A stretch of 36,699 nucleotides of DNA from Bacteroidota bacterium. Its GTDB lineage: Bacteria; Bacteroidota; Ignavibacteria; Ch128b. Positions 2,463 through 20,907 of the stretch are shown one piece after another. Under the pieces are notes generated by a model. That model saw only the letters and a list, made by a program, of their open reading frames with translations, did not search any database and was not told the origin of the DNA. Made by a program: the position numbers and the translations under genes. Location of the stretch: positions 1-36,699 of the forward strand of contig JAHJVF010000320.1 of NCBI GenBank assembly GCA_018828505.1. The letters are read 5' to 3'. Numbering within the stretch: position 1 is the first letter of the stretch; each line of letters opens with the position of its first letter.

Positions 2463-4265
2463 TTAGTTTAATAAAACAAATTTTCGAACATAGGCAAGAT
2501 CATTCACCACAAATTGATATAGATAAACACCCGAGCAAAGCTGTGTATCATCTTTACTTACAGCTTCCCACGTAAACTCATGTAATCCAGATTCCACTGT
2601 TCTAAAATTCTTCGACTCAACTTTGTTTCCGAGTATATCATAAACATTAAATTGAATTTGTCCTCGGTTTGATACTTCATAACGAAACTTTGTGGTGCGA
2701 TTGAAAGGATTTGGAAAATTTTGAAATACTTTAAAAGATTTTGGAAAATATTCTTCATCCAATAAACCAGTTGAAATACTTTCCACAATTATTCCGTTAA
2801 TAAGTGGACGATCAATCAAAGCCGAAAAGTGAATGTCGAGAATTCCATCAGTAACGCTAATATTATTGAAAACTAGATCATAGGCGGTATTTTTTCCTAC
2901 TTGAGCAAAAATGTCGATCGATTCCATTTTATGTGTCTTTTCGATCACCACATCAAACTTACGTGCATCCGCTTGATTAAAATAATTTTCACATGTCATT
3001 AGTATGACTCTATAGTTTCCATTCGGAACACGAATTTTATATTGAGCTAATCCGTGTCGTTCTGATCTGTAAATTGAATCTAAATCTGTTCCATTTATTT
3101 GTATTGATGAAGAAGTATGTGCAACTTGTCCATCTAAATAACCATATTCAGTGTTTACGCTCCATTCTTGATCGGGCAGAAATGCATGCGAAACTCCGCC
3201 ACTTACATTTATTTTTATTGGAAAAGACAATTGTTTTGATTTTATGATCGTAACTGCTCTTGCTGACATCACGTTTGGAATCGGAGCTCGGTCTTTCACG
3301 TTCATTACGATCAGGTTGTATGTGTTGGCATAGTCAAATCCTGAAACGGTTAATTCAACACTTTTAAGATCGGCTCTTAATTTAACATTTGTAATTGTTA
3401 CCGAAGGGATAATATAATTTGAGATAGTTTCTGAACTAATTAAATCTAACTCCTCGGTAAAGTTTGCGATGATTTTGTCATCAGTTATTCTTGCAGAAAG
3501 AAGTGAGGGTCCTTTCAAATCAACATAGCCAATATTTGTACTATTGGTTAAACATAGTATCATCAATCCATCTTTAAAAATTACGTTTTCCTGAATAAAA
3601 TCGGAGTTATTTCCACCCCATGTGTGAGTTGCCTTTTCCCATCTTGATTGATCCCATGAATCAAAGTTGTCTGTCCAAACATGTGTAAAATTGTTTCCGG
3701 TGCCATAGTTACCTGATCCGGGCGTGTATGAATAATAGCTCACCCAATCATAATAAGCGAATGCAGGAAGAACATTCGGATCCCAAGACCCAACCCAATT
3801 CGGATATTCGGGGATCCAAATATTCATCATTATCTTTTGCGCCCGGTTGAGAGTTTGAATGTGTGCACCTGTCTGACGATAGACTTCCGTTCCATCTATA
3901 AACCAAGCTACATACGACGGAGTCCATTCAAAAGCATAAACATGAAAATCCAAGTGTGGATTAAAGTCAACGAACTGATAACGAACGTGATTAGCTTGAT
4001 TTGCAGTTATTGTATTGAACTGGATAATGTCCAAATACCTCCCCAGTATTTCAATGTCTATTTCATTCCATTCACTTAGGTTTGAAATTTCATGGTATGT
4101 AAAGAAAGATGAAAGCATTCCCTCGCGGTGTGCGGATTTAATTTTTGCCTCAAAGCGTCCATAAACGTATGCAGTTTTTGTTCTTAATTCTGCACCTTTA
4201 AAATCTTTTGAGATTGACAACATTGGTAACAACAGAACCATAAATAAATAAAATATTTTCTTCAT
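2463..4265 (-). CDS. GH16 lichenase-type beta-1,3-1,4-glucanase with malectin-like carbohydrate-binding domain and T9SS C-terminal sorting domain
   Basis: 600-aa ORF with ATG at 4265 and a signal peptide. The catalytic motif WNEIDIEILG (EIDIE encoded at 4050-4064) lacks the extra residue of laminarinase-type EIDIME. Flanking blocks resemble Bacillus lichenases (GMLSSFFTY, FHVYAFEWTPSYVAWFIDG, KIMMNIW, YYDWVSY). A mid-region malectin-like block reads YRSERHG..YKIRVPNGNYRVILMTCENYF. The tail FQNFPNPFNRTTKF...GVYLYQF is a TIGR04183-like CTD. Confidence 0.88.
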   Translation of the reverse strand: MKKIFYLFMVLLLPMLSISKDFKGAELRTKTAYVYGRFEAKIKSAHREGMLSSFFTYHEISNLSEWNEIDIEILGRYLDIIQFNTITANQANHVRYQFVDFNPHLDFHVYAFEWTPSYVAWFIDGTEVYRQTGAHIQTLNRAQKIMMNIWIPEYPNWVGSWDPNVLPAFAYYDWVSYYSYTPGSGNYGTGNNFTHVWTDNFDSWDQSRWEKATHTWGGNNSDFIQENVIFKDGLMILCLTNSTNIGYVDLKGPSLLSARITDDKIIANFTEELDLISSETISNYIIPSVTITNVKLRADLKSVELTVSGFDYANTYNLIVMNVKDRAPIPNVMSARAVTIIKSKQLSFPIKINVSGGVSHAFLPDQEWSVNTEYGYLDGQVAHTSSSIQINGTDLDSIYRSERHGLAQYKIRVPNGNYRVILMTCENYFNQADARKFDVVIEKTHKMESIDIFAQVGKNTAYDLVFNNISVTDGILDIHFSALIDRPLINGIIVESISTGLLDEEYFPKSFKVFQNFPNPFNRTTKFRYEVSNRGQIQFNVYDILGNKVESKNFRTVESGLHEFTWEAVSKDDTQLCSGVYLYQFVVNDLAYVRKFVLLN

Positions 4266-4311: not shown

Positions 4312-5343
4312 TCAAAAATTAATCCCTAATGTAAACTTCTGTATATTTTTCAATCTTCCAAAATCTTGATATGCATAATCTAATTTTATTGCAAGATTCC
4401 CAACTATAAATTGTTTCACACCAAAGCCGAGCGTGAATGACTCCTCTGAATCCTTTAAGAAGAGAGATTTATACCCGCCTCTTATCGAAAACGCTCGATA
4501 GAAATTAAGTTCTGCACCAAAATTCACACTTTCATAATTATCGCTTGGATGCATTGCATCTAAAGCAAGTATTAAATCATAGTTCGCAGTTTTAATTGGA
4601 CAGTACGCCACGCCAACACGGAAATTCAAAGGCAATGCCCATTCGTTTGTTTCTAAATAAGCTGGAATTTTATCATTGTTTCCAGTGCCTTCCGGGTCTA
4701 AATCATGAAGAACGAGGTTCGAGTTTCCCAATAACTGCATCTTGGTCCCAAAATTAGAAATTGACATTGCCAAAATCATTCCATCAAATGGAGTAACATA
4801 TTGCACACCCATATCAATTGCAAAAGCCGTGGCATTCATTTTCCATATCGATTGATAAACAAATTTAGGATTAAAACCAATTGAGAATCGATCTGTTAGA
4901 TTAATAGCATACGCAAGACTTATCGCCATATCATTAGCAGTGAAAACTTCGCCTGTTCCATTAGGTTCTTCTATGGTAGTTACTTTCATATCTCCATAAT
5001 TCGAGACAGTAAAGCTCAATCCAACGGTTCCAATGTCACCAAGCTTATAAGTTGCCGCGAGGAAATTATAATTTATTCCCGCAAACCAATTGGTGTGATC
5101 GAACATAATTCCAATGCCATCTAATTTTGCTAATCCGGCAGGATTCCAAAAAATTGAACTTGGATCGTCAGATACTCCAACAAAAGCACTTCCCATAGCA
5201 GTGGCTCTTGCGCTCTGGCCGATCGATAAAAATTGAGCTGCAGTAGTTCCTTTCTTAGAAACATCGGAAATAAATCCTTGTGAAAAAATCATCGAGTTGA
5301 ATATTGTTATGCCTAAAACTGTGATAATTAATTTTGTCTTCAT
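4312..5343 (-). CDS. PorV/PorQ-like outer-membrane beta-barrel protein
   Basis: 343-aa ORF with ATG at 5343 preceded by GGAGA, 11 nt after the upstream stop. It has a signal peptide (MKTKLIITVLGITIFNSMIFSQG). The N-terminal motif GQSARATAMGSAFVGVSDDPSSIFWNPAGLA is typical of the PorV/PorQ (UPF0164-like) family. Alternating beta-strand pattern, and the C-terminal residue is Phe. The family call is by eye only. Confidence 0.55.
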   Translation of the reverse strand: MKTKLIITVLGITIFNSMIFSQGFISDVSKKGTTAAQFLSIGQSARATAMGSAFVGVSDDPSSIFWNPAGLAKLDGIGIMFDHTNWFAGINYNFLAATYKLGDIGTVGLSFTVSNYGDMKVTTIEEPNGTGEVFTANDMAISLAYAINLTDRFSIGFNPKFVYQSIWKMNATAFAIDMGVQYVTPFDGMILAMSISNFGTKMQLLGNSNLVLHDLDPEGTGNNDKIPAYLETNEWALPLNFRVGVAYCPIKTANYDLILALDAMHPSDNYESVNFGAELNFYRAFSIRGGYKSLFLKDSEESFTLGFGVKQFIVGNLAIKLDYAYQDFGRLKNIQKFTLGINF

Positions 5344-5354
5344 TTTTATCTCCG

Positions 5355-8300
5355 CTATTTAATAAGTGCAAATTTGCCAATGTGTTCGCCGATACCTGTG
5401 GCTTCGACATGATAAACATAAACGCCATAGGCAGCATCCATACCGTCTTCGGTTACTAAGTTCCACGACAAGGTTCCATCCATTGCATTCGAATCTTTTT
5501 GTAGAGTTTTAACCAAAGCTCCGGCAATTGTGTACATTCGTATTGTACATTTGCTTGGTAAATTGATAAAATCAATTTTTCTTTCTCCTCTTCCCGTTGA
5601 ATTTAAGTTTCTTCTTTCCCAAGAAGCGGCTCCTAAATAAGGATTCGGGACAACACTGATTTTACTCAATAGTTGTTTAGCTAAACTCAAATCAACTGAA
5701 ACGGGTTTTGTCGCGAAAATAAAGTAATCGCCTGTTTTAAAGGACTTAGTCGTTTTAATAAAATATTTATCCCCAGCTGCAGGTTCAACTGGTGTTATAC
5801 TTGGATTAAATGGTTTATTGTAGAGTACATTCCATGTAATTCGGGAATTAGCTACAGAAGGTGTTCCTACAAACTCTAATAACTGAATAACATCTCCAAA
5901 ACTGAGTGCCCCGGATTTATCATTATCTCTCACAGCAACTTTGGTATATGCGCCGTTAGTTTTATTTAACACTCTGAAATTAATTGGAAACTTCGTATAA
6001 AACGGAGGAGCATGAAAATAAGATGTATCTACCGGTGAATCAGAAAACTGGATCTCATAATCGTATGGCCATAACACTCCTTTTGAGGTTGTATCTCTCA
6101 AAACCATAATATTTAAATTACTCTTTCCAACTGCCCATCCGGATGCAGTATCAATTACCGAAATTACAGTGTCGTTAATTACGGAAATAACCATACCATC
6201 AAATGGTGCACTGAACCGATTAGCTCCGATAAAAGTTGTGTCTAGGTTCTGTAGAAGAGTATCGGTAACGCTCTTATAAGTTCTTATGATATCAAAGGAT
6301 TTTGTGGCATAAGTCGGTAACGGAGTCGTAGATTTAAAAAGCACTTTATATTGTGCACCATCTTTAATTTCTGAAGGATTCAGCACATTAATTTTTAATG
6401 ATCCGGTGCCAACACCATCAGCAACTCTCTTAGTATCTCCGAGAATTTCAGGGGGGATATATCCTGCCGCTGCCGCATTAGGCGTAACTACGGCACAATT
6501 GATATCAATAAATTGAACATTCCCGGCAAAATCTTCTGAGATTATTTTTATACATTCAGTGGGTTGTAATCCTGTTGTGCCAAAATTTGGGTCACCCATA
6601 TCGTACGAAACTAAAGCGTAGTAATAGCGAACTCCATTCTTAACGTCTGTGTCGATAAAAGAATGTTGAAGTCCGGTATCGTCACCTCTCCAGAAACGTG
6701 CTCCATTTATTCCAACAGGATCCGGCCCTTTGATCCCATCAACTAAATCAAATTGCGCAATCGGTTTCCAATAACGTGGGGTACCTTTTGAATCAGTTAT
6801 TATTTTAATATCATTAAACTCTGCTTCAGTGCTTCGATATACTAGATATCCTTCAAAATCTTTTTTATAACCCAACCTTGGATCATTTTTTTCAAAACCT
6901 AAAAATGGGTCCCTTGATTCTTCTGCAACTTTATCCCAGTATAGAAATACTTTCCCATCTCCTGGAACCGCAGTTAAAGTTGGTTTTAGCGGAGGTTTTG
7001 AAAAATTATAATTTGCATTGTATATATTTTGTACTGTTTCTTTATTGAAGATAATATCATTCAAGTCGTTTCCGAATACGAGAACCATAGAGAATCTTTC
7101 GCGTAATCCCTTCTCAAGCGGGAAAGGTCCTGAAGCAAATACCATGCTGATATTTGCTTTTTGAAGCAGTGTATCAAAATTTAAGTAATTCATCTTCAAC
7201 CACATTGACTCATCGTCTTTTGGCCAGCCACCGCCGGTTCCTCCTTGACCTAATCTGTAAAGAGCAACAGAGGTTAAACCGATTTGATCAGATTCATCCT
7301 TATCAGTAAAATCAAAATTTGGTTCGCCGAATGTGGGAAGTCCATCACCTTCACCCTCATCAGGGCCACGGTATTGAGGATCCCAGGGACCGACACCATC
7401 TCTTCCGAGATCGTCATTTAATGGTTCATTTTCTGCTCTATCCCATTTGCCGTTTCCGTTTAGGTCCGTATAAGGTTTCCAGTCGCCGTCGTTATCAATA
7501 CCATCGTCTCTTCTTTCATCAATCATCCCATCCTCATCATCGTCAATACCATTTAAAGCATTACCTGGACTTTCGAGATAAGCATAACCGTAATATCCAG
7601 TTTTCCATCTATCCGGAGTTCCAAAACCATCACTGTCATAACAATAAGCTAGATCAAGCTTTTTATCAAATGAAGCATTATCATCTTCTGAATCAGCCGT
7701 GCCACCCACACCTGGATCGGTATAAAAACCAAAAACTGTTGTTGGATAATCAAAATCCGATATATTTACAATGTCATAATGCCAGAAAATAATGTCTTCA
7801 GCGAGAACGTGCGACCATTGGAATCCTCTCACTTCAACTCTTAATCCAAGCCCTGCCCGTTCACGATCGGCGGAAATCGGAAAATATAACCACGGTGCAC
7901 GCGAATGTTCTTTATCCTTCGAATCATCCATCACAAAGAATGTTTCGAAGTCCGAATTCATCACACCGCGGCCAAAATAACCATACCAGAATCCATTCCA
8001 ATCCGATGTTAAATCAAGAGCTTTAGGCCATACCTTTGGCCAAGATTTTGGGTCAGTGTTAATTGCAGGTTTCTTAGAAGAAGGGTCGATATAACCAGGG
8101 ACTGGCTCTAATCCCCAAATTTCACCAGTCACAGGATCTTTGTCCATCCATTCACGATAAGAAGTTATCAGCGGGTGTATCTTTTGCTTATTTCCCGGTG
8201 CAATAATTTCAGATGCGATCAAAACACAGACTCCATCCAGATAAGAATGACCTGTCCCTTTCGGCCATTCTCCGGAAGGTTGGTGAGGCCACTGCCCAAC

Positions 8301-8480
8301 TTCACCATTGTTATAAAAAAGTGTTCTGATTAAATTTCCATCCATTAAACCTTCTCGCCGGAACTGGATATGACCTTTGGGATCGTCACGGTAAAGTTGA
8401 ACTTGCCGCGTTGTAGTTTGAGCAAAAGCTGTTAAAGATGAAACGACAATTATTAATAATTCAAAAACTATTTTTCTCAT
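5355..8480 (-). CDS. Large secreted protein of unknown function: novel N-domain, Asp-rich Ca-binding loops, Fn3, beta-rich region, variant T9SS-like C-terminal domain
   Basis: The long ORF in the track starts at GTG 8501, overlapping the TBDR stop. I prefer ATG 8480 (MRKIVFELLIIVVSSLTAFAQ signal peptide), which has GGAGG 8 nt upstream. Asp-rich loops are DDDEDGMIDE, IDNDGDW and DLNGNGKWD. The Fn3-like block reads GDGKVFLYWD...EGYLVYRS...GVRYYYALVSYD. The C-terminus VVPNPY...IRMYTIAG..V...GVYVYHV...KFALIK resembles a T9SS CTD with an insertion. Confidence 0.75.
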   Translation of the reverse strand: MRKIVFELLIIVVSSLTAFAQTTTRQVQLYRDDPKGHIQFRREGLMDGNLIRTLFYNNGEVGQWPHQPSGEWPKGTGHSYLDGVCVLIASEIIAPGNKQKIHPLITSYREWMDKDPVTGEIWGLEPVPGYIDPSSKKPAINTDPKSWPKVWPKALDLTSDWNGFWYGYFGRGVMNSDFETFFVMDDSKDKEHSRAPWLYFPISADRERAGLGLRVEVRGFQWSHVLAEDIIFWHYDIVNISDFDYPTTVFGFYTDPGVGGTADSEDDNASFDKKLDLAYCYDSDGFGTPDRWKTGYYGYAYLESPGNALNGIDDDEDGMIDERRDDGIDNDGDWKPYTDLNGNGKWDRAENEPLNDDLGRDGVGPWDPQYRGPDEGEGDGLPTFGEPNFDFTDKDESDQIGLTSVALYRLGQGGTGGGWPKDDESMWLKMNYLNFDTLLQKANISMVFASGPFPLEKGLRERFSMVLVFGNDLNDIIFNKETVQNIYNANYNFSKPPLKPTLTAVPGDGKVFLYWDKVAEESRDPFLGFEKNDPRLGYKKDFEGYLVYRSTEAEFNDIKIITDSKGTPRYWKPIAQFDLVDGIKGPDPVGINGARFWRGDDTGLQHSFIDTDVKNGVRYYYALVSYDMGDPNFGTTGLQPTECIKIISEDFAGNVQFIDINCAVVTPNAAAAGYIPPEILGDTKRVADGVGTGSLKINVLNPSEIKDGAQYKVLFKSTTPLPTYATKSFDIIRTYKSVTDTLLQNLDTTFIGANRFSAPFDGMVISVINDTVISVIDTASGWAVGKSNLNIMVLRDTTSKGVLWPYDYEIQFSDSPVDTSYFHAPPFYTKFPINFRVLNKTNGAYTKVAVRDNDKSGALSFGDVIQLLEFVGTPSVANSRITWNVLYNKPFNPSITPVEPAAGDKYFIKTTKSFKTGDYFIFATKPVSVDLSLAKQLLSKISVVPNPYLGAASWERRNLNSTGRGERKIDFINLPSKCTIRMYTIAGALVKTLQKDSNAMDGTLSWNLVTEDGMDAAYGVYVYHVEATGIGEHIGKFALIK

Positions 8481-8500
8481 TAACTTTACCTCCATTATCA

Positions 8501-11215
8501 CTAAAATGAGAATCCAAAACCTACACGTATTTCTCTTGGGGCAGAGTACATACCAGGGTTGTTTACATATTCATCAATTGTATTAATTCCGATTAGCTCC
8601 CCAGCGTATTTTATATTCAAATCAGTCGACGCACGACCAGTACTTGCATAAATGCCGTACTCATTTTTTATATCTAACAAGTTATAAATCAGTAAAAATG
8701 TATTTAGCTTTAGTCCAAAAACATCGAAACCTTTTTCAGCTCGGAGGTCTAAATTATACGTCCAAGGTTTTAATCCCCCATTTTCGAATCGAACACCTTG
8801 AGAAATTCTAATATCTTCGGTATATGGCCAACCGGAACCATACTGAAACACAAAACCTAAATTCCAATCACCAGGATCCCCCACGGTTACTGAAAGATTT
8901 AGAGTATGTCTTTGATCCCAATCGAGCGGAACAACTTTTTTTGTTTCCTCAATCGGAGGACTGGTTTGGTTATTATTGTAAACGGAATAAGGATCAGAAG
9001 CATTTCCCTCAGCGATCTGAAAAGTGTAATCGACTTTGAAACCAAAATAATCAGCAAATCTTTTATCAAGGGTTACTATCAACCCCCTAACATTTGCATA
9101 ATCTCTGTTAATAAAACGCGCATATTTAAATCCCTCGTAAGTATTAACTATTTCCATACCCAGCCAATTTCGAATGTCTCGATAGTACAATGAAGTATTT
9201 AACACAAAATTTGGAAATAAAACTTGTTGCAATCCGATTTCATACATAATTGTTTTCTCTACATTTAAATCTGGATTACCCATAATCGACGAAAGTGAAA
9301 TACCAGGAATGACAATAAAATCAGGATTCTGATAAAGATTTTCAAAATTGGGAATTTTGAAGAAATGACCGTAGGAAAATCTGAGTATTCCCTGATCAGT
9401 AATTGGGAAGGATGCGCCAAGCCGAGGGCTGATCTGGAATTTAGATTTTGCATTAACGAATTCATTATATCCGTGAAAATTTGGATTCTTTGTCGGATTC
9501 TGTTTATCTAAGGGCAATTTTGCATCCGGATTAAAATAGTCGAATCGTATTCCAGCGTTAATGATCATTATATCATATTCCATCTTATCTTGTATATAAG
9601 CAGAGATTTCATAAGGTTTTCGTGTATATAATTGATTTGATCCACGTTCTGAATAGACTCCTTCATTTGGATAAGCAGGTGTGAAAATTTTATTTCCGGC
9701 AGAATCTGTTTGATCTTCAGTGAGATTAATTAACTCTTTCCAATGATTAAAAATTTCGTGCAACCTGCTTTCGATACCAACTGATATCTTATGCTCTTTT
9801 GATATTTGAGATGATAAAGCCCATTGACCAATAAGAGTATTTGTATATCGTTTGTATCTGCCCCCTTGGTTTCCACCTGACCTAAAAGTATAATTTGAAA
9901 TTGCAATACCCTGTCTAGGATCAACATATCTTGAATCGAGTGTATCTTCATATAAATATCCTTTATAATCATGCCTATTATATGAAAGCTTGAACGTTTG
10001 AAAAGTTTCTTGAGAAGGATAATGAGCAAATTGCAAACTGTGAATCCAATTGGTTCTGAAATGATTCATAATTCCATCAGGCGTCCAAGAAAAATAATGA
10101 TCGTAATACTTGTTAAAATTGTCGTCCCAAATTAATCCGTAGCTTACATTAAATTTTGAACTAGAATAACTCAGTTTTCCATTTAATGAATATTTTCTAT
10201 CCGGATTCATTCGAACGAAAGCACCATCACCAGTATTCTGTGGGATCCAAATGGATTTATTTAGGGGATTAGGAAACAAAGGGACGTCGTCCCAAACATT
10301 ATAAACTCTTCTCCCGAATAAGTAACCATTATTATCATAGTAGCGACCAGTTAAGAAAAACGTTAAATTATTAACAATCTTTGTTGGTCCGCTAAAAGTA
10401 AATTGAAGGTTCCTTGTTGGGATTCGTTCGATTCGATCTAAATTTCTAAAAATACCAGTATGACTTGTGACATAATTCCCGACATAGGCATTAACCGAAG
10501 CTTCGTATTTATTTGATCCGCTTTGTGTAACAATATTAACAACTCCGGATAGAGCTTGACCGTATTCAGCGTTAAATGTTCCGCTAATTACTTCCATCTG
10601 TCGGATTGAAGTATTTTCGATTTCAACTCCGAAGCCGCCGCTAAATGCATCAGTTACGGATACACCATCTATTAAATAAGCGACATCGTTCGAACGACCG
10701 CCTCTAAAATGACCTCCGATAACTCCAGCTTGCAGATTAACAATTTGATTGATGTCTTCAACAGGCATCATTTTAATCTCAGAAGATGTTACAGTCGCAG
10801 AAGTTGAAGTTAGATCTCTTTGCACTAAAGGTCTATCAGCAGTAACAATAACGTCCTGACCAAGTTGAATAACAGTCGATTTTAATTTTACGTTAAGTTT
10901 AGTGGTCAAGTCAATTTTTATTAAAACTTTTTCATAAGTTATTTTTTGATAACCTACAGCACTAACGATTACGCGGTACTCACCCGGTGGAATATTATTG
11001 ATATAATAGTAACCGTTAAAATCAGTTGCAGCACCAAAGAATGTTCCTTCAATGATAACATTTGCCCCGATTAAAGCTTCACCCGATTCATATTCGTGTA
11101 CGTAACCGGATAACTTTCCAGTTGTACCTGAGAACCCAACATTTACGAATAAAGCCAAGAGCATCATAAATGAAGAAAATATTTTAAATGAAATTATTTT
11201 TTCAATATCACGCAT
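8501..11215 (-). CDS. TonB-dependent outer-membrane receptor with N-terminal CarboxypepD_reg domain (SusC-like architecture)
   Basis: The CarboxypepD_reg block reads GKLSGYV..GANVII..TDFNGYYYINNIPPGEYRVIVSAVGY. The plug reads DVIVTADRP...SEIKMMPVEDINQIVNLQAGV...RGGRSNDVAYLIDGV. A long barrel ends in the OMP-type terminus RVGFGFSF. The track start (GTG 11293) lies inside the upstream terminator hairpin. I use ATG 11215 (MRDIEKIISFKIFSSFMMLLALFVNVGFS). Confidence 0.88.
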   Translation of the reverse strand: MRDIEKIISFKIFSSFMMLLALFVNVGFSGTTGKLSGYVHEYESGEALIGANVIIEGTFFGAATDFNGYYYINNIPPGEYRVIVSAVGYQKITYEKVLIKIDLTTKLNVKLKSTVIQLGQDVIVTADRPLVQRDLTSTSATVTSSEIKMMPVEDINQIVNLQAGVIGGHFRGGRSNDVAYLIDGVSVTDAFSGGFGVEIENTSIRQMEVISGTFNAEYGQALSGVVNIVTQSGSNKYEASVNAYVGNYVTSHTGIFRNLDRIERIPTRNLQFTFSGPTKIVNNLTFFLTGRYYDNNGYLFGRRVYNVWDDVPLFPNPLNKSIWIPQNTGDGAFVRMNPDRKYSLNGKLSYSSSKFNVSYGLIWDDNFNKYYDHYFSWTPDGIMNHFRTNWIHSLQFAHYPSQETFQTFKLSYNRHDYKGYLYEDTLDSRYVDPRQGIAISNYTFRSGGNQGGRYKRYTNTLIGQWALSSQISKEHKISVGIESRLHEIFNHWKELINLTEDQTDSAGNKIFTPAYPNEGVYSERGSNQLYTRKPYEISAYIQDKMEYDIMIINAGIRFDYFNPDAKLPLDKQNPTKNPNFHGYNEFVNAKSKFQISPRLGASFPITDQGILRFSYGHFFKIPNFENLYQNPDFIVIPGISLSSIMGNPDLNVEKTIMYEIGLQQVLFPNFVLNTSLYYRDIRNWLGMEIVNTYEGFKYARFINRDYANVRGLIVTLDKRFADYFGFKVDYTFQIAEGNASDPYSVYNNNQTSPPIEETKKVVPLDWDQRHTLNLSVTVGDPGDWNLGFVFQYGSGWPYTEDIRISQGVRFENGGLKPWTYNLDLRAEKGFDVFGLKLNTFLLIYNLLDIKNEYGIYASTGRASTDLNIKYAGELIGINTIDEYVNNPGMYSAPREIRVGFGFSF

Positions 11216-11268
11216 GACCACTACCCATGAATTTTTCTTTATGAATAATACAAATGATTCTAAGAAAT

Positions 11269-11303
11269 AAAAGGCACAGCGAAATTGTAACACTGTGCCT
11301 TTT
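11269..11303 (-). terminator. Intrinsic-terminator-like hairpin between the 874-aa gene and the TBDR gene
   Basis: The minus-strand RNA reads AAAAGGCACAG-UGUUACAAUUUCG-CUGUGCCUUUU followed by AUUUCUU. The GC-rich core is 7 bp, or 11 bp with the A/U extension. It starts 5 nt after the TAA stop at 11309-11311. Confidence 0.55.
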
Positions 11304-11308
11304 GAATA

Positions 11309-13933
11309 TTATTTCAAGAACATCATCTTCTTTATACTTCTGAAAGAACCGGAATCAATACTGTAGAAATAAATCCCGCTTGATAATTTTGAAGCGTCAA
11401 AATTAACTGAATATTTTCCAGGATTTTGATACTCGTTGACAAGTTCCGAAACTTGCCTACCCAAGATGTCAAATACTTTAATGGAAACATTTCCAGGTTT
11501 TTCAATCGAATAGGCAATAGTAGTTTTGGGATTAAATGGATTCGGATAATTCTGAGATAAATTATATGTATATACATTAGTAATGTCGTCTTCAACACCA
11601 ACAGGATCCCATAAATTACCGATCCAAGTGTATAGCCATCTCGATACATCGTTCCAGGATTGATCTTCATTGTAAGGTGAATATGTCATGATTCCTTCTC
11701 TTGAACCTGTAGCGTCGGCGTCATTGATTGAAAAATCGAGTGGTAATCTCATACCTTCAAGCGGGCTGAAAAGATTATCGCCGCCTCTTTGGGCAAGTGA
11801 AGAGAATGGGATCTTTGCTTCGACTACATAACCCGTTGGGAATTTTTCTCCCCAGAAATAATTTGTTCCAGGGACTAAAAGACTGTCCCCTCCGGTTAAT
11901 CCGTCTATCATTGCTCTATCTTTAGCGAATCTTATATGATAATCCGGTTGAGCCCCGCGTTTATATGAGGTGTGCGGTTTTCCATGCCAATTGTAAAGAC
12001 CAATGAATATATCCGGCGCATCATTTAAATAAGAAGATAGACTTGGATTAAAACTAACTATATCATCTTCGACATCAAATGCGATGTACATGTTACTATT
12101 ATCCATAGCAACATAGGCTTTAACAGCTAAATCTGCATCCCCGCTTATTTTAGTATTTGTTACTACATAAGCATTGCCCTCAGAAAGGTACATTCTTATT
12201 GGTTGGACTCCTGACCACTCGGAAAGATCTCCGTCAGCCTTAAAATTCGTAGGAGGAGTTAGCGAAATTGTTCGCACACCTTTTGCTGTATTTGTTATGG
12301 GTGATGTTAGAATTGTTGGTAGAGAAACATTCCCTGCTTTATCGGTACATGTTATTGCATAATAATATCTAACCGATTGATTGGTATTTGGTGCCCTCAG
12401 TAAATGTTCAAAAATCTGAACTCCTTCAGTAACCCTTAATTTTACAACTTCGGCCCAATTCAAATCTGTAATTGGATTTTTACTGTAATAAATATCATAT
12501 CTCTCACCCGATTCACCAGGGACATCAATCCAGGTTATTAAATTTGTAAATGTTCCGGATACAACTTGAAATCCAGTAACCTTATCTGGTGGAGTATTGT
12601 CAGTTTCTCTTATTCCGGTTGGAATTAAAAGATCGAATAGTACAGTACCCTTTGAGGTTATACCTTGGGGTCCATTTGGATTACCCGAGAACTCAAATTT
12701 AAATCCGGTAATTTTATTCAGATCAAGCAATCCATTTCCTGTATAAGTTTCCCAGCCTGGGATGATAAATCCATCAGTAGGTAACGTCCATGGATCTCCA
12801 CCCATTTTGCTTACAAGAGGGATTTTTATCATTTGCCAGTCTGATGTAGTGTCAACATTTATATTTACTTGATGGTACCATTGTTCATTAGCACCCTCGC
12901 TGGCATCGAATAACATACAACGAAGAGTTACTCTTCCTGCAACCGATGCCGCTGTTTGAACCTTTAATGCCACAAGCAGATGGGTCCTAGCAGTTAAATC
13001 GGGTAAAAAAGTTCCTGCAGAAAGATTACGGGTGAAATTAACATAGCCGCCCCAGCTTTGAGACATATGGACCTGCCAATCAACCTTTAATGATGAGTAT
13101 CCTTCAAATGGGCTCACAGTGACATCTGTGAAGTTAAGATACCCTTGGTTACCAGGGTCCCATCCCATTAAATCTTTAACAAAAAAGTTGTTTACTGCCG
13201 TACTGTCGAAAGTGGTAAGTGGAGCATAACGGAATCCGATCAGTTCCAATTTATCCCATAAAACAACTCCCGATGCTGTACCCTGACTTGGAATGCCGGG
13301 TGTTGTCCATTCAATACTATAACCGACAATTTTATCGAGATCGAGTTCTCCATTGTTCATTTGACCACTCCAGCCCGGTAAAGAAAATCCTTCGTCGTTT
13401 GGTCCACCACCAGCACCTCTATCGACTAAAGGAATTAACAGTTCATTCCAACCTGGTGCAGCATCGTAAATTCCGGCTTTCTCGAAATACCAGTCTTCGT
13501 GATCGTCTTGATTTGCCCAATAATTTGAAGTACCACCTGCTTCATGCAATTTAAAGCGCATGTTCACTAATCCCGGTTTTGAAGAGGGTGTTTGAGTATA
13601 GTACCTTATTCTCAAATGGGTACCAGAAGAAAAATCCATATATGTTGCATCTTGAGTAGGAGTTAAGTGCATCATCTGGATAAACCCACCCCATGATTCA
13701 GTACTATGTACCGTCCATACACATTTCAATGCTGCATTACCATGAAACGGTGCTGGATTTGAAGTGTTATCTGTTAAAATAACTCCTCCTGTTCCGGTTC
13801 CTAATCCCGGATTAATTGGAGGGTGTAAAAAGAAAGAATCTCTGGCAACTGTTTCAAACCCATTTATTATCCACTGGGCATTGAGGAACGTTGCCGAAAA
13901 GAATAGTAGAATTAAGACAAAAAATTTTCTCAT
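11309..13933 (-). CDS. Non-catalytic surface glycan-binding-type protein: two tandem beta-sandwich modules, Fn3, CBM9-like domain, T9SS CTD
   Basis: 874-aa ORF with ATG at 13933, AAGGAGA upstream and signal peptide MRKFFVLILLFFSATFLNAQ. There is an internal duplication (aa ~21-233 vs ~241-440): ALKCVWTVHSTESWGGF / SLKVDWQVHMSQSWGGY and GFSLPGWSGQMNNGELDLDKIVGYSIEW / GFIIPGWETYTGNGLLDLNKITGFKFEF. The CBM9-like block reads DGDLSEW...DLAVKAYVAMDNSNMYIAFDVEDD...GYVVEAKIPF. The tail reads LSQNYPNPFNPKTTI...GIYFYSI. I recognised no glycosidase catalytic motif. Confidence 0.8.
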   Translation of the reverse strand: MRKFFVLILLFFSATFLNAQWIINGFETVARDSFFLHPPINPGLGTGTGGVILTDNTSNPAPFHGNAALKCVWTVHSTESWGGFIQMMHLTPTQDATYMDFSSGTHLRIRYYTQTPSSKPGLVNMRFKLHEAGGTSNYWANQDDHEDWYFEKAGIYDAAPGWNELLIPLVDRGAGGGPNDEGFSLPGWSGQMNNGELDLDKIVGYSIEWTTPGIPSQGTASGVVLWDKLELIGFRYAPLTTFDSTAVNNFFVKDLMGWDPGNQGYLNFTDVTVSPFEGYSSLKVDWQVHMSQSWGGYVNFTRNLSAGTFLPDLTARTHLLVALKVQTAASVAGRVTLRCMLFDASEGANEQWYHQVNINVDTTSDWQMIKIPLVSKMGGDPWTLPTDGFIIPGWETYTGNGLLDLNKITGFKFEFSGNPNGPQGITSKGTVLFDLLIPTGIRETDNTPPDKVTGFQVVSGTFTNLITWIDVPGESGERYDIYYSKNPITDLNWAEVVKLRVTEGVQIFEHLLRAPNTNQSVRYYYAITCTDKAGNVSLPTILTSPITNTAKGVRTISLTPPTNFKADGDLSEWSGVQPIRMYLSEGNAYVVTNTKISGDADLAVKAYVAMDNSNMYIAFDVEDDIVSFNPSLSSYLNDAPDIFIGLYNWHGKPHTSYKRGAQPDYHIRFAKDRAMIDGLTGGDSLLVPGTNYFWGEKFPTGYVVEAKIPFSSLAQRGGDNLFSPLEGMRLPLDFSINDADATGSREGIMTYSPYNEDQSWNDVSRWLYTWIGNLWDPVGVEDDITNVYTYNLSQNYPNPFNPKTTIAYSIEKPGNVSIKVFDILGRQVSELVNEYQNPGKYSVNFDASKLSSGIYFYSIDSGSFRSIKKMMFLK

Positions 13934-14009: not shown

Positions 14010-15641
14010 TTATCCTAATAGTCCCCAAATACTGATTATTATAAATATTAAGAGTGCAGAGAAAGTTAAATTCAATTTAATATTAGCAGCACCATCCATA
14101 CTAAATGATCTACTGACAATTATTTGCTTAAAATTTTCAATCAAAGTATAAGTAGTTTTCGATTTTCTTGTTTCTGAGGCAGATTGAGTCAAATAACTGA
14201 TCGTAAAAATTAAAACCGTTGATACCACAAATAAGAGAATTGCAAAATGCAGATAATTAATCTTCACAAAAGTTAGGAAAATTGGATTCTCAACATTAGC
14301 CGAATCAACAAACATTTCAATAAATAATTTTGATAATCCAAGCAACTCACCAATTACCAAAGTCCAAACTGCCCCTTTCGCATTAACTTTTTTACTTAAT
14401 AACCCAAACAAAAATACTGCGGTAATTGGAGGGCTCAAATATGCTTGTAAACTTTGCAGATAAACATAAACCTGATTTGCGATTACTTTAACTAACGGCA
14501 CACAAAAAATAGCAATCACAACTGTAGCTGTTGTTGCTAACCTGCCAACCAGAACTAATTTTCTTTCAGAAGAGTCAGGATTCTTCAATTTGTAAAAATC
14601 ATTGGTAAATAAACTGGCTGTACTATTAAATACACTTGCAAGTGAGGACATGATAGCTCCTAACAAGCCAGCAACAACAACACCTTTTAATCCCATTGGC
14701 AAAATATTGCTAGCCAGAAGAGTAGGGTATGCTTCATCTCCCTTTACCTCCGGGAAAATCGCAACTGCAATCAAACCCGGCAAAACGAGAATAAAGATAG
14801 GAGTGATCTTTAAAGTTGCCGCTAAGATTGAGCCTCTACAAGCATCATTAACACTACGAGCACTCAATATACGTTGAACAATAAATTGATCTGTGCACCA
14901 ATACCAATAAGCTAAAATAGGAGCGCCGAAAATAATCCCTGTCCATGGAAAATCCGGATCGTTAATAGGTTTAAACATCTGGAAAAAATGTTCAGGTAAT
15001 TTTGCCGTAAGACCGCTGAATCCACCAACATGATTTAATCCAAAAACCGTTAAAATCAAAGCACCAAGTATGATTAAAATTCCCTGAATCACATGTGTCC
15101 TGATTACAGCCGAACCGCCGCCGATAACCGTATAAATACCTGTGATCAAAATGATGATGATTGCCGAAGTATAAATATTTAAACCAAAGATTTTCTGAAA
15201 TAATAAACCTCCCGCAAAAAGTGTTACTGTTATTTTAGTAAAAATATAAATAATGACAGAAGTGACTGTAAAAATTTTTCGGCTTTTCTGATCATATCTT
15301 TTACCAAGGAATTCCGGCATGGTAATTACACCTGATTTGATATAAATTGGAGCTAAAAACCACCCAAGGAAAATGAGGATAAAAATAGCCATTAATTCAA
15401 AATGAGCAACCGCCAATCCCCTTGATGCACCAGAACCCGCCAAACCAATAAAATGTTCACTTGAAATATTTGTTGCAAAAAGTGACAAACCGATTGCGAT
15501 CCAACCTACATTTCTCCCAGCTAAAAAATAATCTGATGTTGTCCTATCTTTTTTCCCAGAAGAATATAATCCTACACTAAGAATTAGAACTAAATATAAA
15601 AATAGAATTATACTGTCAATTAATTGAAAACTAATACTCAC
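14010..15641 (-). CDS. Sodium:solute symporter (SSS/SGLT family) sugar transporter
   Basis: 543-aa polytopic membrane ORF. SSS blocks include DYFLAGRNVGWIAIGLSLFATNISSEHFIGLAG and YWYWCTDQFIVQRILSARS. It is a paralog of 22566..24158. The start is GTG at 15641 and aligns with the paralog's N-terminus. Confidence 0.9.
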   Translation of the reverse strand: MSISFQLIDSIILFLYLVLILSVGLYSSGKKDRTTSDYFLAGRNVGWIAIGLSLFATNISSEHFIGLAGSGASRGLAVAHFELMAIFILIFLGWFLAPIYIKSGVITMPEFLGKRYDQKSRKIFTVTSVIIYIFTKITVTLFAGGLLFQKIFGLNIYTSAIIIILITGIYTVIGGGSAVIRTHVIQGILIILGALILTVFGLNHVGGFSGLTAKLPEHFFQMFKPINDPDFPWTGIIFGAPILAYWYWCTDQFIVQRILSARSVNDACRGSILAATLKITPIFILVLPGLIAVAIFPEVKGDEAYPTLLASNILPMGLKGVVVAGLLGAIMSSLASVFNSTASLFTNDFYKLKNPDSSERKLVLVGRLATTATVVIAIFCVPLVKVIANQVYVYLQSLQAYLSPPITAVFLFGLLSKKVNAKGAVWTLVIGELLGLSKLFIEMFVDSANVENPIFLTFVKINYLHFAILLFVVSTVLIFTISYLTQSASETRKSKTTYTLIENFKQIIVSRSFSMDGAANIKLNLTFSALLIFIIISIWGLLG

Positions 15642-17799: not shown

Positions 17800-17827
17800 A
17801 AAAGCGTTTGTAAATTTTACAATCTTC

Positions 17828-17843
17828 TGCAAAAATTACGCCA
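17828..17843 (-). promoter_or_regulatory. Candidate sigma54 (-24/-12) promoter upstream of GH5-CBM6
   Basis: The minus strand reads TGGCGT-AATTT-TTGCA against the consensus TGGCAC-N5-TTGCW. The -12 TTGC is perfect and the GG-to-GC spacing is correct. It lies about 30 nt upstream of ATG 17799 and about 100 nt downstream of the response-regulator stop. Confidence 0.6.
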
Positions 17844-19405: not shown

Positions 19406-19417
19406 GTTTATTGCCTT

Positions 19418-20896: not shown

Positions 20897-20907
20897 TACT
20901 TAGACAA

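What the first reader, a model, noticed from the sequence alone, without database searches (positions are those of the whole stretch)
4312..11215. SusD-less glycan-capture module: TonB-dependent receptor + ~1041-aa Asp-rich T9SS-tailed protein + PorV/PorQ-like barrel
Three genes are packed head to tail. There are 20 nt with a GGAGG between the TBDR stop and ATG 8480, and 11 nt between the giant-protein stop and ATG 5343. They are embedded among beta-glucanases (GH16 and GH3 downstream, a CBM-rich protein upstream).

In Bacteroidota PULs, a SusC-like TBDR is paired with a SusD lipoprotein. No SusD-like gene occurs anywhere in this 36.7 kb. The position after the TBDR is instead filled by a very large secreted protein in which I recognise no catalytic motif. 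That protein has a novel ~290-aa N-domain, Ca-binding-type Asp loops, an Fn3 domain and a CTD-like tail.

A small beta-barrel follows, and its N-terminal motif matches the PorV/PorQ family. In known T9SS biology, PorV shuttles or holds CTD cargo at the outer membrane.

My inference is that the trio is a dedicated surface complex. The giant protein would act as the glycan-binding lid or SGBP analogue of the TBDR. A locus-specific PorV paralog would tether it, or the four other CTD enzymes of the locus, next to the transporter. I do not know of a characterised system with this composition.
Basis: partly seen in the sequence, partly recalled or inferred. Interest (0 to 1): 0.8.

Follow-up and report, generated by a model that had tools for sequence, protein, structure and literature searches.

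The report
TonB receptor, surface protein, PorV-like module
Three tightly linked outer-membrane genes (a TonB-dependent receptor, an unannotated 1,041-residue all-beta protein with a secretion-type tail, and a dedicated PorV/PorQ-family barrel) form a module found next to different nutrient-degrading enzyme sets in many Bacteroidota-related lineages, so it looks like an undescribed alternative to the SusC/SusD uptake pair.

Summary
Window 4312-11215 (minus strand) encodes three genes in a row:
- a TonB-dependent receptor that is not of the SusC type;
- a 1,041-aa protein with no Pfam, NCBIfam or PDB sequence match;
- a PorV/PorQ-family barrel.

They are separated by 20 nt and 11 nt and sit in a beta-glucan locus that has no SusD gene.

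The trio is not a local accident. In about 240 related loci the same three genes are adjacent, and the three proteins diverge in step. These loci come from Ignavibacteria, Rhodothermales, Balneolales, Calditrichota, Marinimicrobia, KSB1 and others. Paralogous trios lie beside different enzyme sets: GH16/GH3/GH5, GH130, GH144-like with GH94, GH13 with CBM20, and even GDPD/GlpD/lipase.

The large protein is all-beta. It has a supersandwich N-domain that carries Asp-rich loops, an FN3-like domain, a variable middle region, and a very conserved, divergent type-A T9SS C-terminal domain.

[quoted passage not shown] Its cognate PorV-like carrier holds it at the surface by an uncleaved tail. There it serves the receptor as a substrate-capture partner.

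I found no description of this module in the searchable literature. The idea that the barrel tethers the other CTD enzymes is not supported, and "SusD-less" applies to the locus only.

The parts
8501..11215 (-). TonB-dependent receptor (904 aa from ATG 11215). It has a signal peptide, a CarboxypepD_reg-like N-terminal domain, a TonB-box-like DVIVTA, a plug and a barrel. It is not of the SusC/RagA type.
   Evidence: Pfam and NCBIfam results. TIGR04056 scores 56.5 bits against a cut-off of 368. The start codon was read. Homologues lie directly upstream of the large protein in 135 of 137 loci.
5355..8480 (-). Large 1,041-aa secreted all-beta protein from an unannotated family. It has a Sec signal peptide (AFA-Q) and no lipobox.
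   Evidence: No Pfam, NCBIfam or PDB sequence match. 4,337 representative clusters match at E<=1e-3. AF2 model: pLDDT 80.5.
6996..8417 (-). N-terminal beta-supersandwich domain (aa 22-495). It includes the inserted Asp-rich loop region (aa 306-402, nt 7275-7565).
   Evidence: AF2 model of the domain: pLDDT 80, pTM 0.83. Foldseek top hits are the N-terminal supersandwich domains of GH94, GH149, GH116 and GH15 enzymes (TMq 0.34-0.40, E 3e-5 to 1e-3).
6501..6995 (-). FN3-like domain (aa 496-660), strongly conserved across paralogues.
   Evidence: Foldseek matches fibronectin type III arrays. Mean identity is 51% among paralogues and 78% among orthologues. Pfam reports no fn3 match.
5676..6500 (-). 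Variable middle region of beta-sandwich domains (aa 661-935). It is the least conserved part and is expanded by 300-500 aa in long family members.
   Evidence: Identity is 28% among paralogues and 51% among orthologues. Architecture survey. pLDDT is 85-93.
5358..5675 (-). Divergent type-A T9SS C-terminal domain (aa 936-1041). It has an insertion of about 20 residues after the VVPNPY motif.
   Evidence: hhalign against the local type-A CTD profile: 97.8% probability, E 9.5e-13. Weak matches to the PorU and PorZ CTDs and to TIGR04183, all below cut-off. It is 76% identical among orthologues, against 34-58% for the neighbours' ordinary CTDs.
4312..5343 (-). PorV/PorQ-family outer-membrane barrel (343 aa). 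It is nearest to PorQ but below every equivalog cut-off, and is inferred to be the cognate carrier or anchor of the large protein.
   Evidence: NF033709 224 bits against 90; PorQ 118.8 against 220; PorV 73.7 against 250; PorV2 73.3 against 325. PDB PorV 6h3i_F matches at E 1.5e-9. It lies directly downstream of the large protein in 142 of 145 loci. All 120 homologues tested match NF033709.
11262..11303 (-). Intrinsic-terminator-like hairpin with a U-rich tail, between the CBM9/CTD gene and the receptor. It marks a likely transcription-unit boundary upstream of the trio.
   Evidence: 13-bp stem, -19.4 kcal/mol, z -6.4, followed by UUUUAUUUCUU. No comparable structure lies between the PorV-like gene and GH16.
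11309..13933 (-). Non-catalytic CBM9 + type-A CTD protein (874 aa) immediately upstream. It is a recurrent companion of the trio and a candidate T9SS-anchored surface glycan-binding protein.
   Evidence: Pfam CBM9_1 55 bits and Por_Secre_tail 48 bits. A CTD protein flanks the trio in many loci.

Best explanation
The three genes encode one outer-membrane nutrient-capture and import module that plays the role SusC/SusD plays in Bacteroidia.

1. The TonB-dependent receptor is the energised import channel.
2. The 1,041-aa protein is exported by Sec. Its divergent type-A C-terminal domain then directs it to the type IX secretion translocon.
3. At the translocon its own PorV/PorQ-family barrel, encoded 11 nt downstream, picks it up.
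4. Ordinary T9SS cargo has its CTD cleaved. This CTD stays on, and the protein stays bound to its barrel, as PorZ stays on PorQ, PorU on PorV, and type-B cargo on PorP/SprF.
5. The protein is thus displayed at the cell surface beside the receptor. The conserved parts (N-terminal supersandwich with acidic loops, FN3-like domain, CTD) would make the contacts with barrel and receptor. The variable middle domains would face the substrate.

In this window the module serves a beta-glucan locus (GH16, three GH3, three GH5, a CBM9 protein and two sodium-solute symporters).

What is shown: gene identity, family membership of the receptor and the barrel, remote homology of the CTD, the all-beta non-enzymatic architecture, conservation of the trio, its co-divergence, and its presence in loci of differing substrate.

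What is inferred: T9SS dependence, retention of the CTD, anchoring on the barrel, physical contact with the receptor, and substrate binding.
For: - **Adjacency and orientation.** A receptor lies upstream in 135 of 137 cases and a PorV-like gene downstream in 142 of 145. The pattern holds in a third, more distant scan. Gaps are 20 nt and 12 nt at the median.
- **Inheritance as a unit.** Identities of the three proteins to the window co-vary (rho 0.89-0.95 overall, 0.70-0.76 among distant loci).
- **Modularity.** There are paralogous trios within the same genomes (L008/L153, L014/L155, L015/L158) and tandem trios (L112, L136, L144). They occur with different enzyme sets:
  - GH130 with an ABC transporter;
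  - GH94, a PF10091 glucanase and GH2;
  - GH13 amylases with a CBM20 protein;
  - GDPD, GlpD and lipase.
- **Barrel.** All 120 downstream barrels tested match the PorV/PorQ family model. The window copy scores nearest to PorQ.
- **CTD.** It is homologous to the local type-A CTDs. It is 76% identical among orthologues, against 34-58% for the neighbours' ordinary CTDs and 51% for the protein's own middle region. That fits a retained, functional domain.
- **No enzyme fold.** The model is all-beta. Only the accessory supersandwich of GH94/GH149 enzymes is matched, and there is no (alpha/alpha)6 catalytic domain.
- **Architecture.** The order N, Asp-rich loops, FN3, variable middle, CTD is constant in 150 representatives, and only the middle expands.
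- **Precedents in the literature.** Cognate PorV-like carriers protect and anchor uncleaved CTDs (PMC10202324; PMC10994853). A FadL/PorV-like barrel bridges another barrel and a surface protein in the Bacteroidota BAM complex (PMC12578637).
Against: - No experiment or complex prediction links the three proteins physically.
- The CTD fails the curated thresholds (TIGR04183 13.5 bits against 23; no Pfam match) and carries an insertion that is modelled with low confidence (aa 946-966).
- T9SS core genes were not examined in this organism. Its use of T9SS is inferred from the four ordinary CTD proteins in the window.
- Substrate binding has not been located to any part of the protein. The supersandwich match is weak (TMq at most 0.40).
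- The large protein is the most conserved protein of the locus (76-79% outside the middle region, against 64% for the receptor). That is unusual for a substrate-specific binder.
- Gene order is permuted in a few loci (L131/L223, L181, L239).
- The published Rhodothermus marinus xylan locus has a TBDR-hypothetical-hypothetical run next to a true SusC/SusD pair (PMC6987092). If that run is the same module, it complements SusD rather than replacing it.
Confidence: 0.55

Rival explanations
1. The large protein and its PorV-like carrier form a self-standing surface adhesin, scaffold or glycan-binding pair, analogous to SprB/SprF or an SGBP-B. This pair captures polymer or organises the CTD enzymes. 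It does not dock on the receptor, and the receptor gene is simply co-regulated with it.
For: The cargo-carrier logic rests on the same evidence. Non-catalytic CTD/CBM proteins recur beside the trio, so surface binding functions are common in these loci. The gap between the large protein and the barrel (median 12 nt) is tighter than the gap between the receptor and the large protein (median 20 nt).
Against: The receptor is as constant a neighbour as the barrel (135 of 137). It co-diverges with the large protein even more tightly (rho 0.95). Within a trio the receptor is duplicated and moved together with the pair (tandem trios).
Confidence: 0.2
2. The large protein is an enzyme of a new family, for example a surface polymer-processing activity built on the supersandwich and acidic-loop domain. 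It would prepare substrates for the receptor.
For: Invariant acidic and aromatic residues are concentrated in the N-domain. The N-domain's nearest folds come from glycoside phosphorylases and hydrolases.
Against: Only the non-catalytic accessory domain of those enzymes is matched, and weakly (TMq at most 0.40). No catalytic (alpha/alpha)6 or TIM domain is present. The conserved N-domain occurs unchanged in loci for alpha-glucan, beta-glucan, mannoside, beta-1,2-glucan and glycerophosphodiester or lipid substrates, which argues against one chemistry.
Confidence: 0.08
3. The trio is an assembly or export device rather than an importer. The receptor-like barrel and the PorV-like barrel would serve to place the large protein, which has a structural or protective role, in the outer membrane. 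The link to catabolic loci would be secondary.
For: The large protein is the most conserved component. 24 of the 120 PorV-like barrels also weakly match the BamG family model. SurA-like PPIase genes recur beside the trio.
Against: There are several paralogous trios per genome, each embedded in a different catabolic locus with its own regulator and inner-membrane sugar transporter. The receptor has a normal plug and a TonB-box-like motif.
Confidence: 0.07

Closest known systems
SusC/SusD (TBDT plus SGBP-A) core of Bacteroidota polysaccharide utilization loci
   Same: A TonB-dependent receptor with a CarboxypepD_reg-like N-terminal extension is encoded immediately before a gene for a cell-surface partner. 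The pair is duplicated into many loci with different CAZyme sets, regulators and inner-membrane transporters.
   Different: The receptor fails the SusC/RagA model (56.5 bits against 368). The partner is not a helical TPR lipoprotein of about 550 aa. It is an all-beta, non-lipidated protein of 1,000-1,600 aa with a T9SS-type tail. A third obligatory gene, the PorV/PorQ-family barrel, has no counterpart in SusCD.
T9SS cargo held by cognate carrier barrels: PorZ-PorQ, PorU-PorV, and type-B CTD proteins with PorP/SprF (for example SprB/SprF)
   Same: A large surface protein with a C-terminal sorting domain is encoded next to its own PorV-like barrel. In the known cases the CTD is not cleaved and the barrel anchors the protein (PMC10202324; PMC10994853). 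The window barrel scores nearest to PorQ, and the tail weakly resembles the PorU and PorZ CTDs. PorZ is the top whole-model Foldseek hit, but with a low TM-score.
   Different: The barrel is not a PorP/SprF protein, and it is below the PorV, PorQ and PorV2 equivalog cut-offs. The cargo's CTD is a divergent type A, not type B. The pair is fused into an operon with a TonB-dependent receptor, and it is multiplied across catabolic loci rather than being part of the secretion or gliding machinery.
Atypical SusD-less PUL chu_1276-chu_1280 of Cytophaga hutchinsonii (PMC12016534)
   Same: It is a cellulose-utilisation cluster built around a TBDT-like barrel, another outer-membrane protein and beta-sandwich surface binding proteins, with no SusD homologue. 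It was proposed as a new type of PUL.
   Different: The components differ. CHU_1279 is 375 aa with two CBM-like domains. No protein of about 1,000 aa with a CTD and no PorV-family barrel is described. It was reported only in three related cellulolytic Cytophagales. Sequence relationship to the present trio was not tested.
BamG-BamH of the Bacteroidota BAM complex (PMC12578637)
   Same: A 14-stranded FadL/PorV-like barrel packs against another outer-membrane barrel and holds a surface-exposed protein by its extracellular loops. This is the geometry proposed here. 24 of the 120 PorV-like barrels also weakly match the BamG model.
   Different: That complex is housekeeping machinery with a lipoprotein partner. 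There is no CTD and no TonB-dependent receptor, and there is one copy per genome.

Membership tests
TonB-dependent receptor | N-terminal plug domain and a 22-strand barrel recognised by the family profiles | tested here: met
   PF00593 scores 83 bits (cut-off 27) and PF07715 Plug scores 29.2 bits (cut-off 23.9).
TonB-dependent receptor | TonB box preceding the plug | tested here: inconclusive
   The sequence QDVIVTADRP lies between the CarboxypepD_reg domain and the plug (read). No profile test was available.
SusC/RagA subfamily (TIGR04056) | Score above the curated cut-off over the full-length model | tested here: not met
   56.5 bits against 368.25. Only model positions 2-252 of 981 are matched.
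SusD/RagB family | SusD-like helical TPR fold and Pfam SusD models on the gene that follows the receptor, or anywhere in the window | tested here: not met
   No SusD family was reported for any ORF. The gene after the receptor is predicted to be almost entirely beta.
Canonical PUL | Adjacent susC/susD gene pair | tested here: not met
   No such pair is present in the 36.7 kb.
PorV/PorQ family (NF033709) | Score above the curated subfamily cut-off over the full length | tested here: met
   224.3 bits against 90, covering model positions 1-326 of 326. All 120 homologues from other trios match.
PorV proper (NF033710), PorQ proper (NF033711), PorV2 (NF052325) | Equivalog cut-off | tested here: not met
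   73.7 bits against 250; 118.8 against 220; 73.3 against 325.
T9SS type-A C-terminal sorting domain (TIGR04183 / PF18962) | Curated cut-off of the domain models | tested here: not met
   TIGR04183 scores 13.5 bits against 23. PF18962 is not reported even at E<=10.
T9SS type-A C-terminal sorting domain (TIGR04183 / PF18962) | Homology of the C-terminal ~75 residues to bona fide type-A CTDs | tested here: met
   hhalign of the family CTD profile against a profile of the CTDs of neighbouring enzymes gives 97.8% probability and E 9.5e-13 over 72 columns. That local CTD HMM also hits most family members.
T9SS type-A C-terminal sorting domain (TIGR04183 / PF18962) | Secretion dependent on T9SS; fate of the CTD (cleaved or retained) | not testable with these tools
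   This needs proteomics or genetics.
T9SS type-B CTD with PorP/SprF partner | CHU_C / TIGR04131 domain on the cargo and a PorP/SprF barrel next to it | tested here: not met
   No CHU_C or TIGR04131 match on the large protein. The barrel is of the PorV/PorQ family.
GH94 / GH149 glycoside phosphorylases | An (alpha/alpha)6 catalytic domain following the N-terminal supersandwich | tested here: not met
   Only the supersandwich is matched (TMq 0.34-0.40). The model has almost no helices. There is no Pfam GH94 match.
Fibronectin type III domain | fn3 profile match or fold | tested here: inconclusive
   No Pfam match. Foldseek of the whole model matches FN3 arrays at E 2e-6, but with a low global TM-score.

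The most novel reading that the evidence does not exclude
A second, SusD-independent class of TonB-dependent "utilisome" exists across the FCB superphylum. In it the receptor's surface partner is not a lipoprotein. It is a T9SS-delivered protein of 1,000-1,600 aa that stays bound by an uncleaved CTD to its own PorQ-like carrier barrel. The three proteins would form one complex whose variable middle domains set substrate specificity. This would give PorV-family barrels a new role as permanent subunits of nutrient importers. It would also tie T9SS directly to outer-membrane uptake in lineages such as Ignavibacteria, Rhodothermales, Calditrichota and Marinimicrobia.
Probability: 0.4. Interest if true: 0.85.

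Novelty: new variant of a known kind. Interest (0 to 1): 0.72.

Why it matters
SusC/SusD pairs are the accepted marker for finding polysaccharide utilization loci, and PUL databases depend on them. This trio may be an equivalent core for lineages and loci where SusD is absent. These include abundant environmental groups such as Ignavibacteria in sludge and aquifers, Marinimicrobia in the ocean, Calditrichota in sediments and Rhodothermales. If so, a large share of their glycan and other nutrient-uptake loci is currently invisible to annotation. The central family has thousands of sequence clusters and no name.

It would also extend type IX secretion biology. A PorV/PorQ-family carrier would act as a fixed subunit of an importer, and a type-A-like CTD would act as a permanent anchor.

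The hypothesis can be tested in cultured organisms that carry the module, such as Melioribacter, Ignavibacterium and Rosettibacter primus, and in the sequenced genome CP030158, whose organism was not identified here.

Tried and rejected
- **Direct annotation of the large protein.** Pfam, NCBIfam and PDB sequence searches gave nothing, whether run on the whole protein or on four pieces.
- **Whole-model Foldseek.** This gave mainly multi-domain beta proteins with a TM-score of about 0.1 (PorZ, PorU, FN3 arrays, insulin receptor, complement C3). These are not informative beyond "beta-sandwich array plus CTD".
- **Literature.** Ten full-text searches were run. The terms covered Ignavibacteria, Melioribacter, Calditrichota, Marinimicrobia, PorV-like, PorV2, FCB, Rhodothermus and the Cytophaga hutchinsonii chu_1276-chu_1279 genes. 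They found no description of the trio, although subscription journals are not covered.
- **Caldithrix genome paper.** It mentions TonB receptors only for B12 and thiamine.
- **Link to Rhodothermus marinus Rmar_1070-1073.** The last genome scan and the last protein search were used to test this link. R. marinus itself did not appear among the listed hits, so the link stays unverified.
- **First automated adjacency counts.** These under-counted upstream receptors because they used HSP ends. They were replaced by ORF-level counts and by inspection.
- **One alignment** was too divergent to seed a genome scan.
- **Explanations rejected.**
  - Chance adjacency: rejected by the census.
  - PorU or PorZ orthology of the large protein: rejected because there are many paralogues per genome, all in catabolic loci.
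  - A FadL-type hydrophobic-compound channel: rejected because the PorV/PorQ model is clearly met, while Toluene_X is below its cut-off (22.3 bits against 29.7).

Full report
**1. What is in the window**

The window has about 36% G+C. Its close relatives are all Ignavibacteria.

On the minus strand, in the direction of transcription, the genes are:
- 20908-22227: a solute-binding protein.
- 19418-20896: a histidine kinase.
- 17945-19405: a sigma-54 response regulator.
- 15802-17832: GH5 + CBM6 + type-A CTD.
- 14010-15641: a sodium-solute symporter.
- 11309-13933: a non-catalytic CBM9 + CTD protein.
- 8501-11215: the TonB-dependent receptor.
- 5355-8480: the 1,041-aa protein.
- 4312-5343: the PorV-like barrel.
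- 2463-4265: GH16 + malectin + CTD.
- 139-2382: GH3.

A divergent plus-strand operon adds a second symporter, two GH3, two GH5-type proteins, a CarboxypepD_reg protein and a SurA-like PPIase. No SusD-like protein is encoded anywhere in the window.

There are 20 nt containing GGAGG before ATG 8480, and 11 nt before ATG 5343.

A strong terminator-like hairpin with a U-tail separates the CBM9 gene from the receptor (13 bp, -19.4 kcal/mol, z -6.4). Nothing comparable lies between the PorV-like gene and GH16. The trio therefore probably heads a transcription unit that continues into GH16 and GH3.

**2. The three proteins**

*Receptor.* It has a CarboxypepD_reg-like N-terminal domain, a plug and a barrel. 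It scores 56.5 bits against the 368-bit cut-off of the SusC/RagA model, and only its N-terminal quarter matches.

*Small barrel.* It is a full-length member of the PorV/PorQ family (224 bits against 90). It is below the cut-offs for PorV, PorQ and PorV2, with PorQ the nearest. Its N-terminal half aligns to the solved F. johnsoniae PorV at E 1.5e-9.

*Large protein.* It has a Sec signal peptide and no lipobox. It matches no curated family and no PDB sequence. AlphaFold2 with a 46-sequence alignment gives a mostly confident, almost purely beta model (pLDDT 80.5).

- Modelled alone, residues 22-500 give pTM 0.83. Their best structural matches are the N-terminal beta-supersandwich domains of GH94, GH149, GH116, GH15 and GH161 enzymes (probability about 1.0, but TMq only 0.34-0.40). 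The catalytic (alpha/alpha)6 domain of those enzymes is absent.
- The Asp-rich stretch (aa 306-402, 23% Asp, DxDxDG-like motifs) is an excursion inside this domain.
- An FN3-like domain, two or three beta-sandwich domains and a C-terminal domain follow.
- The C-terminal domain fails TIGR04183 (13.5 bits against 23). It gives weak matches to the CTDs of PorU and PorZ.
- A profile of the family's tail aligns to a profile built from the ordinary CTDs of neighbouring enzymes with 97.8% probability (E 9.5e-13). It is a type-A-like CTD with an insertion of about 20 residues after the VVPNPY motif.

**3. Is the trio more than a local arrangement?**

The large protein belongs to a big unnamed family. 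4,337 representative clusters (50% identity) match at E<=1e-3, and 655 match at E<=1e-30.

Four genome scans fetched about 240 loci.

- The 80 closest loci (61-75% identity, Ignavibacteriaceae and Melioribacteraceae) are orthologous beta-glucan loci. They share the order symporter, CBM9/CTD, receptor, large protein, PorV-like, GH16, GH3.
- Over the first 162 loci I made an ORF-level count. A few contigs were fetched twice and were not removed.
  - A receptor homologue lies directly upstream on the same strand for 135 of 137 large-protein genes with enough flank.
  - A PorV-like gene lies directly downstream for 142 of 145.
  - The exceptions are a frameshifted gene (L102), an extra ORF (L122) and an order variant (L131).
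- The pattern persists in the most distant scan, with a few permutations or duplications (L181, L223, L239).
- All 120 downstream barrels tested match the PorV/PorQ family model.
- Intergenic gaps are short everywhere, with medians of 20 nt and 12 nt.
- The identities of the three proteins to the window copies rise and fall together (Spearman 0.89-0.95 overall, and 0.70-0.76 among loci below 55%). The trio is therefore duplicated and inherited as a unit.

The record titles name Ignavibacteria, Rhodothermales, Balneolales, Kryptonia, Calditrichota, Marinimicrobia, KSB1, Stahlbacteria, Eisenbacteria, Delongbacteria, WOR-3 and Fibrobacteraceae. There are also a few oddly labelled bins.

**4. What the trios accompany**

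Several genomes hold more than one trio (L008/L153, L014/L155, L015/L158), and some loci carry two in tandem (L112, L136, L144). The neighbouring genes differ from locus to locus:
- GH16, GH3 and GH5 in this window.
- Two GH130 genes plus an ABC sugar transporter (L161, L162).
- GH94 plus a PF10091 "glucoamylase"-type glucanase, or that glucanase with GH2 and a LacI regulator (L153, L155).
- GH13 amylases, a CTD protein with CBM20, a LacI regulator and an MFS transporter (L186, L316). This is a starch-type locus built on the trio instead of SusCDEFG.
- A GlpD-like dehydrogenase, a glycerophosphodiesterase and a GDSL lipase (L160).

This is the behaviour of a generic, re-usable uptake core, not of a beta-glucan-specific device. 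A non-catalytic CTD protein, often with a CBM, is a frequent fourth companion.

**5. Conservation pattern**

Among paralogues, mean identity to the window protein is as follows:

| Region | Identity |
|---|---|
| Asp-rich loops | 58% |
| FN3-like domain | 51% |
| CTD | 49% |
| N-domain | 41% |
| Middle region (aa 661-935) | 28% |

Long family members (1,350-1,600 aa) differ by insertions in the middle region only.

Among orthologues:
- The large protein is the best-conserved protein of the locus. The N-domain is 76% identical, the Asp loops 79%, the FN3-like domain 78% and the CTD 76%.
- The receptor is 64% identical, the barrel 67% and the GH16 catalytic domain 61%.
- The ordinary type-A CTDs of the neighbouring enzymes reach only 34-58%, even when the best match in the locus is taken.

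A secretion signal that is cut off and discarded should not be this conserved. The pattern fits a CTD that stays on the protein and makes a specific contact.

**6. Mechanism proposed**

The literature gives two models. PorU and PorZ keep their CTDs and stay bound to PorV and PorQ. Type-B cargo such as SprB needs a dedicated PorP/SprF barrel, encoded next to it, and remains attached to that barrel. Reviewers have proposed that cognate PorV-like barrels protect CTDs from cleavage (PMC10202324). Cryo-EM work shows that cargo is recognised at the translocon by its cognate carrier protein (PMC10994853).

By analogy, I propose that T9SS exports the large protein. Its own PorQ-like barrel collects it and keeps it on the surface. 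The co-inherited receptor gene then suggests that the pair sits beside the receptor as its substrate-capture partner. The BamG-BamH arrangement in the Bacteroidota BAM complex is a structural precedent. There a FadL/PorV-like barrel packs against another barrel and holds a surface protein (PMC12578637).

The conserved N, Asp-rich and FN3 parts and the CTD would make the contacts within the machine. The variable middle region would face the substrate.

All of these steps are inference. None of the interactions, the T9SS dependence or the substrate binding has been tested.

**7.

The core idea, a dedicated three-gene surface module that stands where SusD would, is supported by the census and by family membership.
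- The large protein matches neither a characterised enzyme nor a SusD-like fold.
- The barrel belongs to the PorV/PorQ family.
- The gene order is conserved.

Three points need correcting:
- The barrel is a one-to-one partner of the large protein. It occurs in loci with no other CTD enzymes, so a role in tethering "the four other CTD enzymes" is not supported.
- The module is not glycan-specific.
- The lineage is not SusD-free. M. roseus has a SusCDE operon (PMC3534657), and susCD-based PULs are predicted in Ignavibacteriae (PMC5753385).

The published R. marinus xylan locus lists a TonB-dependent receptor (Rmar_1070), a hypothetical protein with a Por CTD (Rmar_1071), a hypothetical protein (Rmar_1072) and another CTD protein (Rmar_1073). 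A few genes further on is a true SusC/SusD pair (PMC6987092). This has the shape of the trio. If it is the same module, the trio can work alongside SusCD rather than only in its place. I could not obtain those sequences to check this.

**8. Novelty and limits**

No searched paper describes this module or names the family. The nearest concepts are SusCD, the T9SS cargo-carrier pairs and the atypical chu_1276-1280 PUL of Cytophaga hutchinsonii (PMC12016534).

I rate it a new variant of known kinds: a receptor-centred uptake locus combined with a T9SS carrier-anchored surface protein.

The main weaknesses are these:
- There is no structural or experimental evidence for the complex.
- The fold match of the N-domain is weak.
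- T9SS core genes were not checked in these genomes.
- The literature search covers open-access text only.

Noticed in passing
window 11262-11303 (minus strand): A 13-bp hairpin (-19.4 kcal/mol, z -6.4) followed by UUUUAUUUCUU lies between the stop of the CBM9/CTD gene and the receptor start. The consensus terminator scan missed it because of its 9-nt loop. There is no such structure between the PorV-like gene and GH16.
   Followed up: partly
window 34286-36118 (+); also L164:1409-3094, L316:5398-7098 and about 30 other loci: A SurA-like PpiC-type PPIase gene recurs next to trios. In the starch-type subfamily it sits directly upstream of the receptor. It is present in 18 of 78 and 11 of 79 distant loci, and at the end of the plus-strand operon here. 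It may be a dedicated periplasmic chaperone for the module's barrels or cargo.
   Followed up: partly
window 17945-22227 (minus strand): A periplasmic solute-binding protein, a histidine kinase and a sigma-54-dependent response regulator lie in a row at the head of the locus, divergent from the plus-strand operon. This looks like a three-component sugar sensor that drives sigma-54 promoters. The response regulator is also found next to the trio in several orthologous loci.
   Followed up: no
window 26045-27406 (+): A 453-aa protein lies between GH3 and GH5. Its only recognisable part is an N-terminal CarboxypepD_reg domain, and the remaining ~350 aa have no family. Homologues occur beside trios in L022, L034 and L079.
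   Followed up: no
window 11309-13933 (minus strand) and the gene upstream of the receptor in many loci: A non-catalytic CBM9 + CTD protein precedes the receptor here. A CTD protein with or without a CBM (CBM9, CBM20, CBM4_9) flanks the trio in many paralogous loci. It may be a fourth, semi-constant component (SGBP-like).
   Followed up: partly
L112, L136, L144 (tandem trios); L131/L223, L181, L239 (order variants): Some loci carry two complete trios in tandem. A few have two large-protein genes per receptor, or the order receptor, barrel, large protein. One has a PPIase between the large protein and the barrel.
   Followed up: partly
Rhodothermus marinus Rmar_1070-1073 (PMC6987092), not in the window: The published xylan locus lists a TonB-dependent receptor, a hypothetical protein with a Por CTD, a hypothetical protein and another hypothetical protein with a CTD. 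They are co-transcribed with Xyn10A and lie a few genes from a true SusC/SusD pair. This has the pattern of the trio. Sequence identity to the family could not be checked.
   Followed up: partly
alignment A7 (120 PorV-like barrels from trios): 24 of the 120 barrels also match the NCBIfam BamG family model (best E 7e-12). 116 match the "PorV2" model, but below its cut-off. The relationship of these trio barrels to BamG and PorV2 is unexplored.
   Followed up: no
window 8481-8501 and 11216-11293: The mechanical ORF calls over-extend both genes. GTG 8501 would overlap the receptor stop, and the ORF start at 11293 lies inside the terminator hairpin. The ATG codons at 8480 and 11215 are the plausible starts.
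   Followed up: yes
window 5355-8480 compared with its neighbours, across L001-L080: Outside its middle region, the unannotated large protein is more conserved among Ignavibacteria (76-79%) than the receptor (64%), the barrel (67%) or the GH16 catalytic domain (61%). This is unexpected for a substrate-binding accessory protein.
   Followed up: partly
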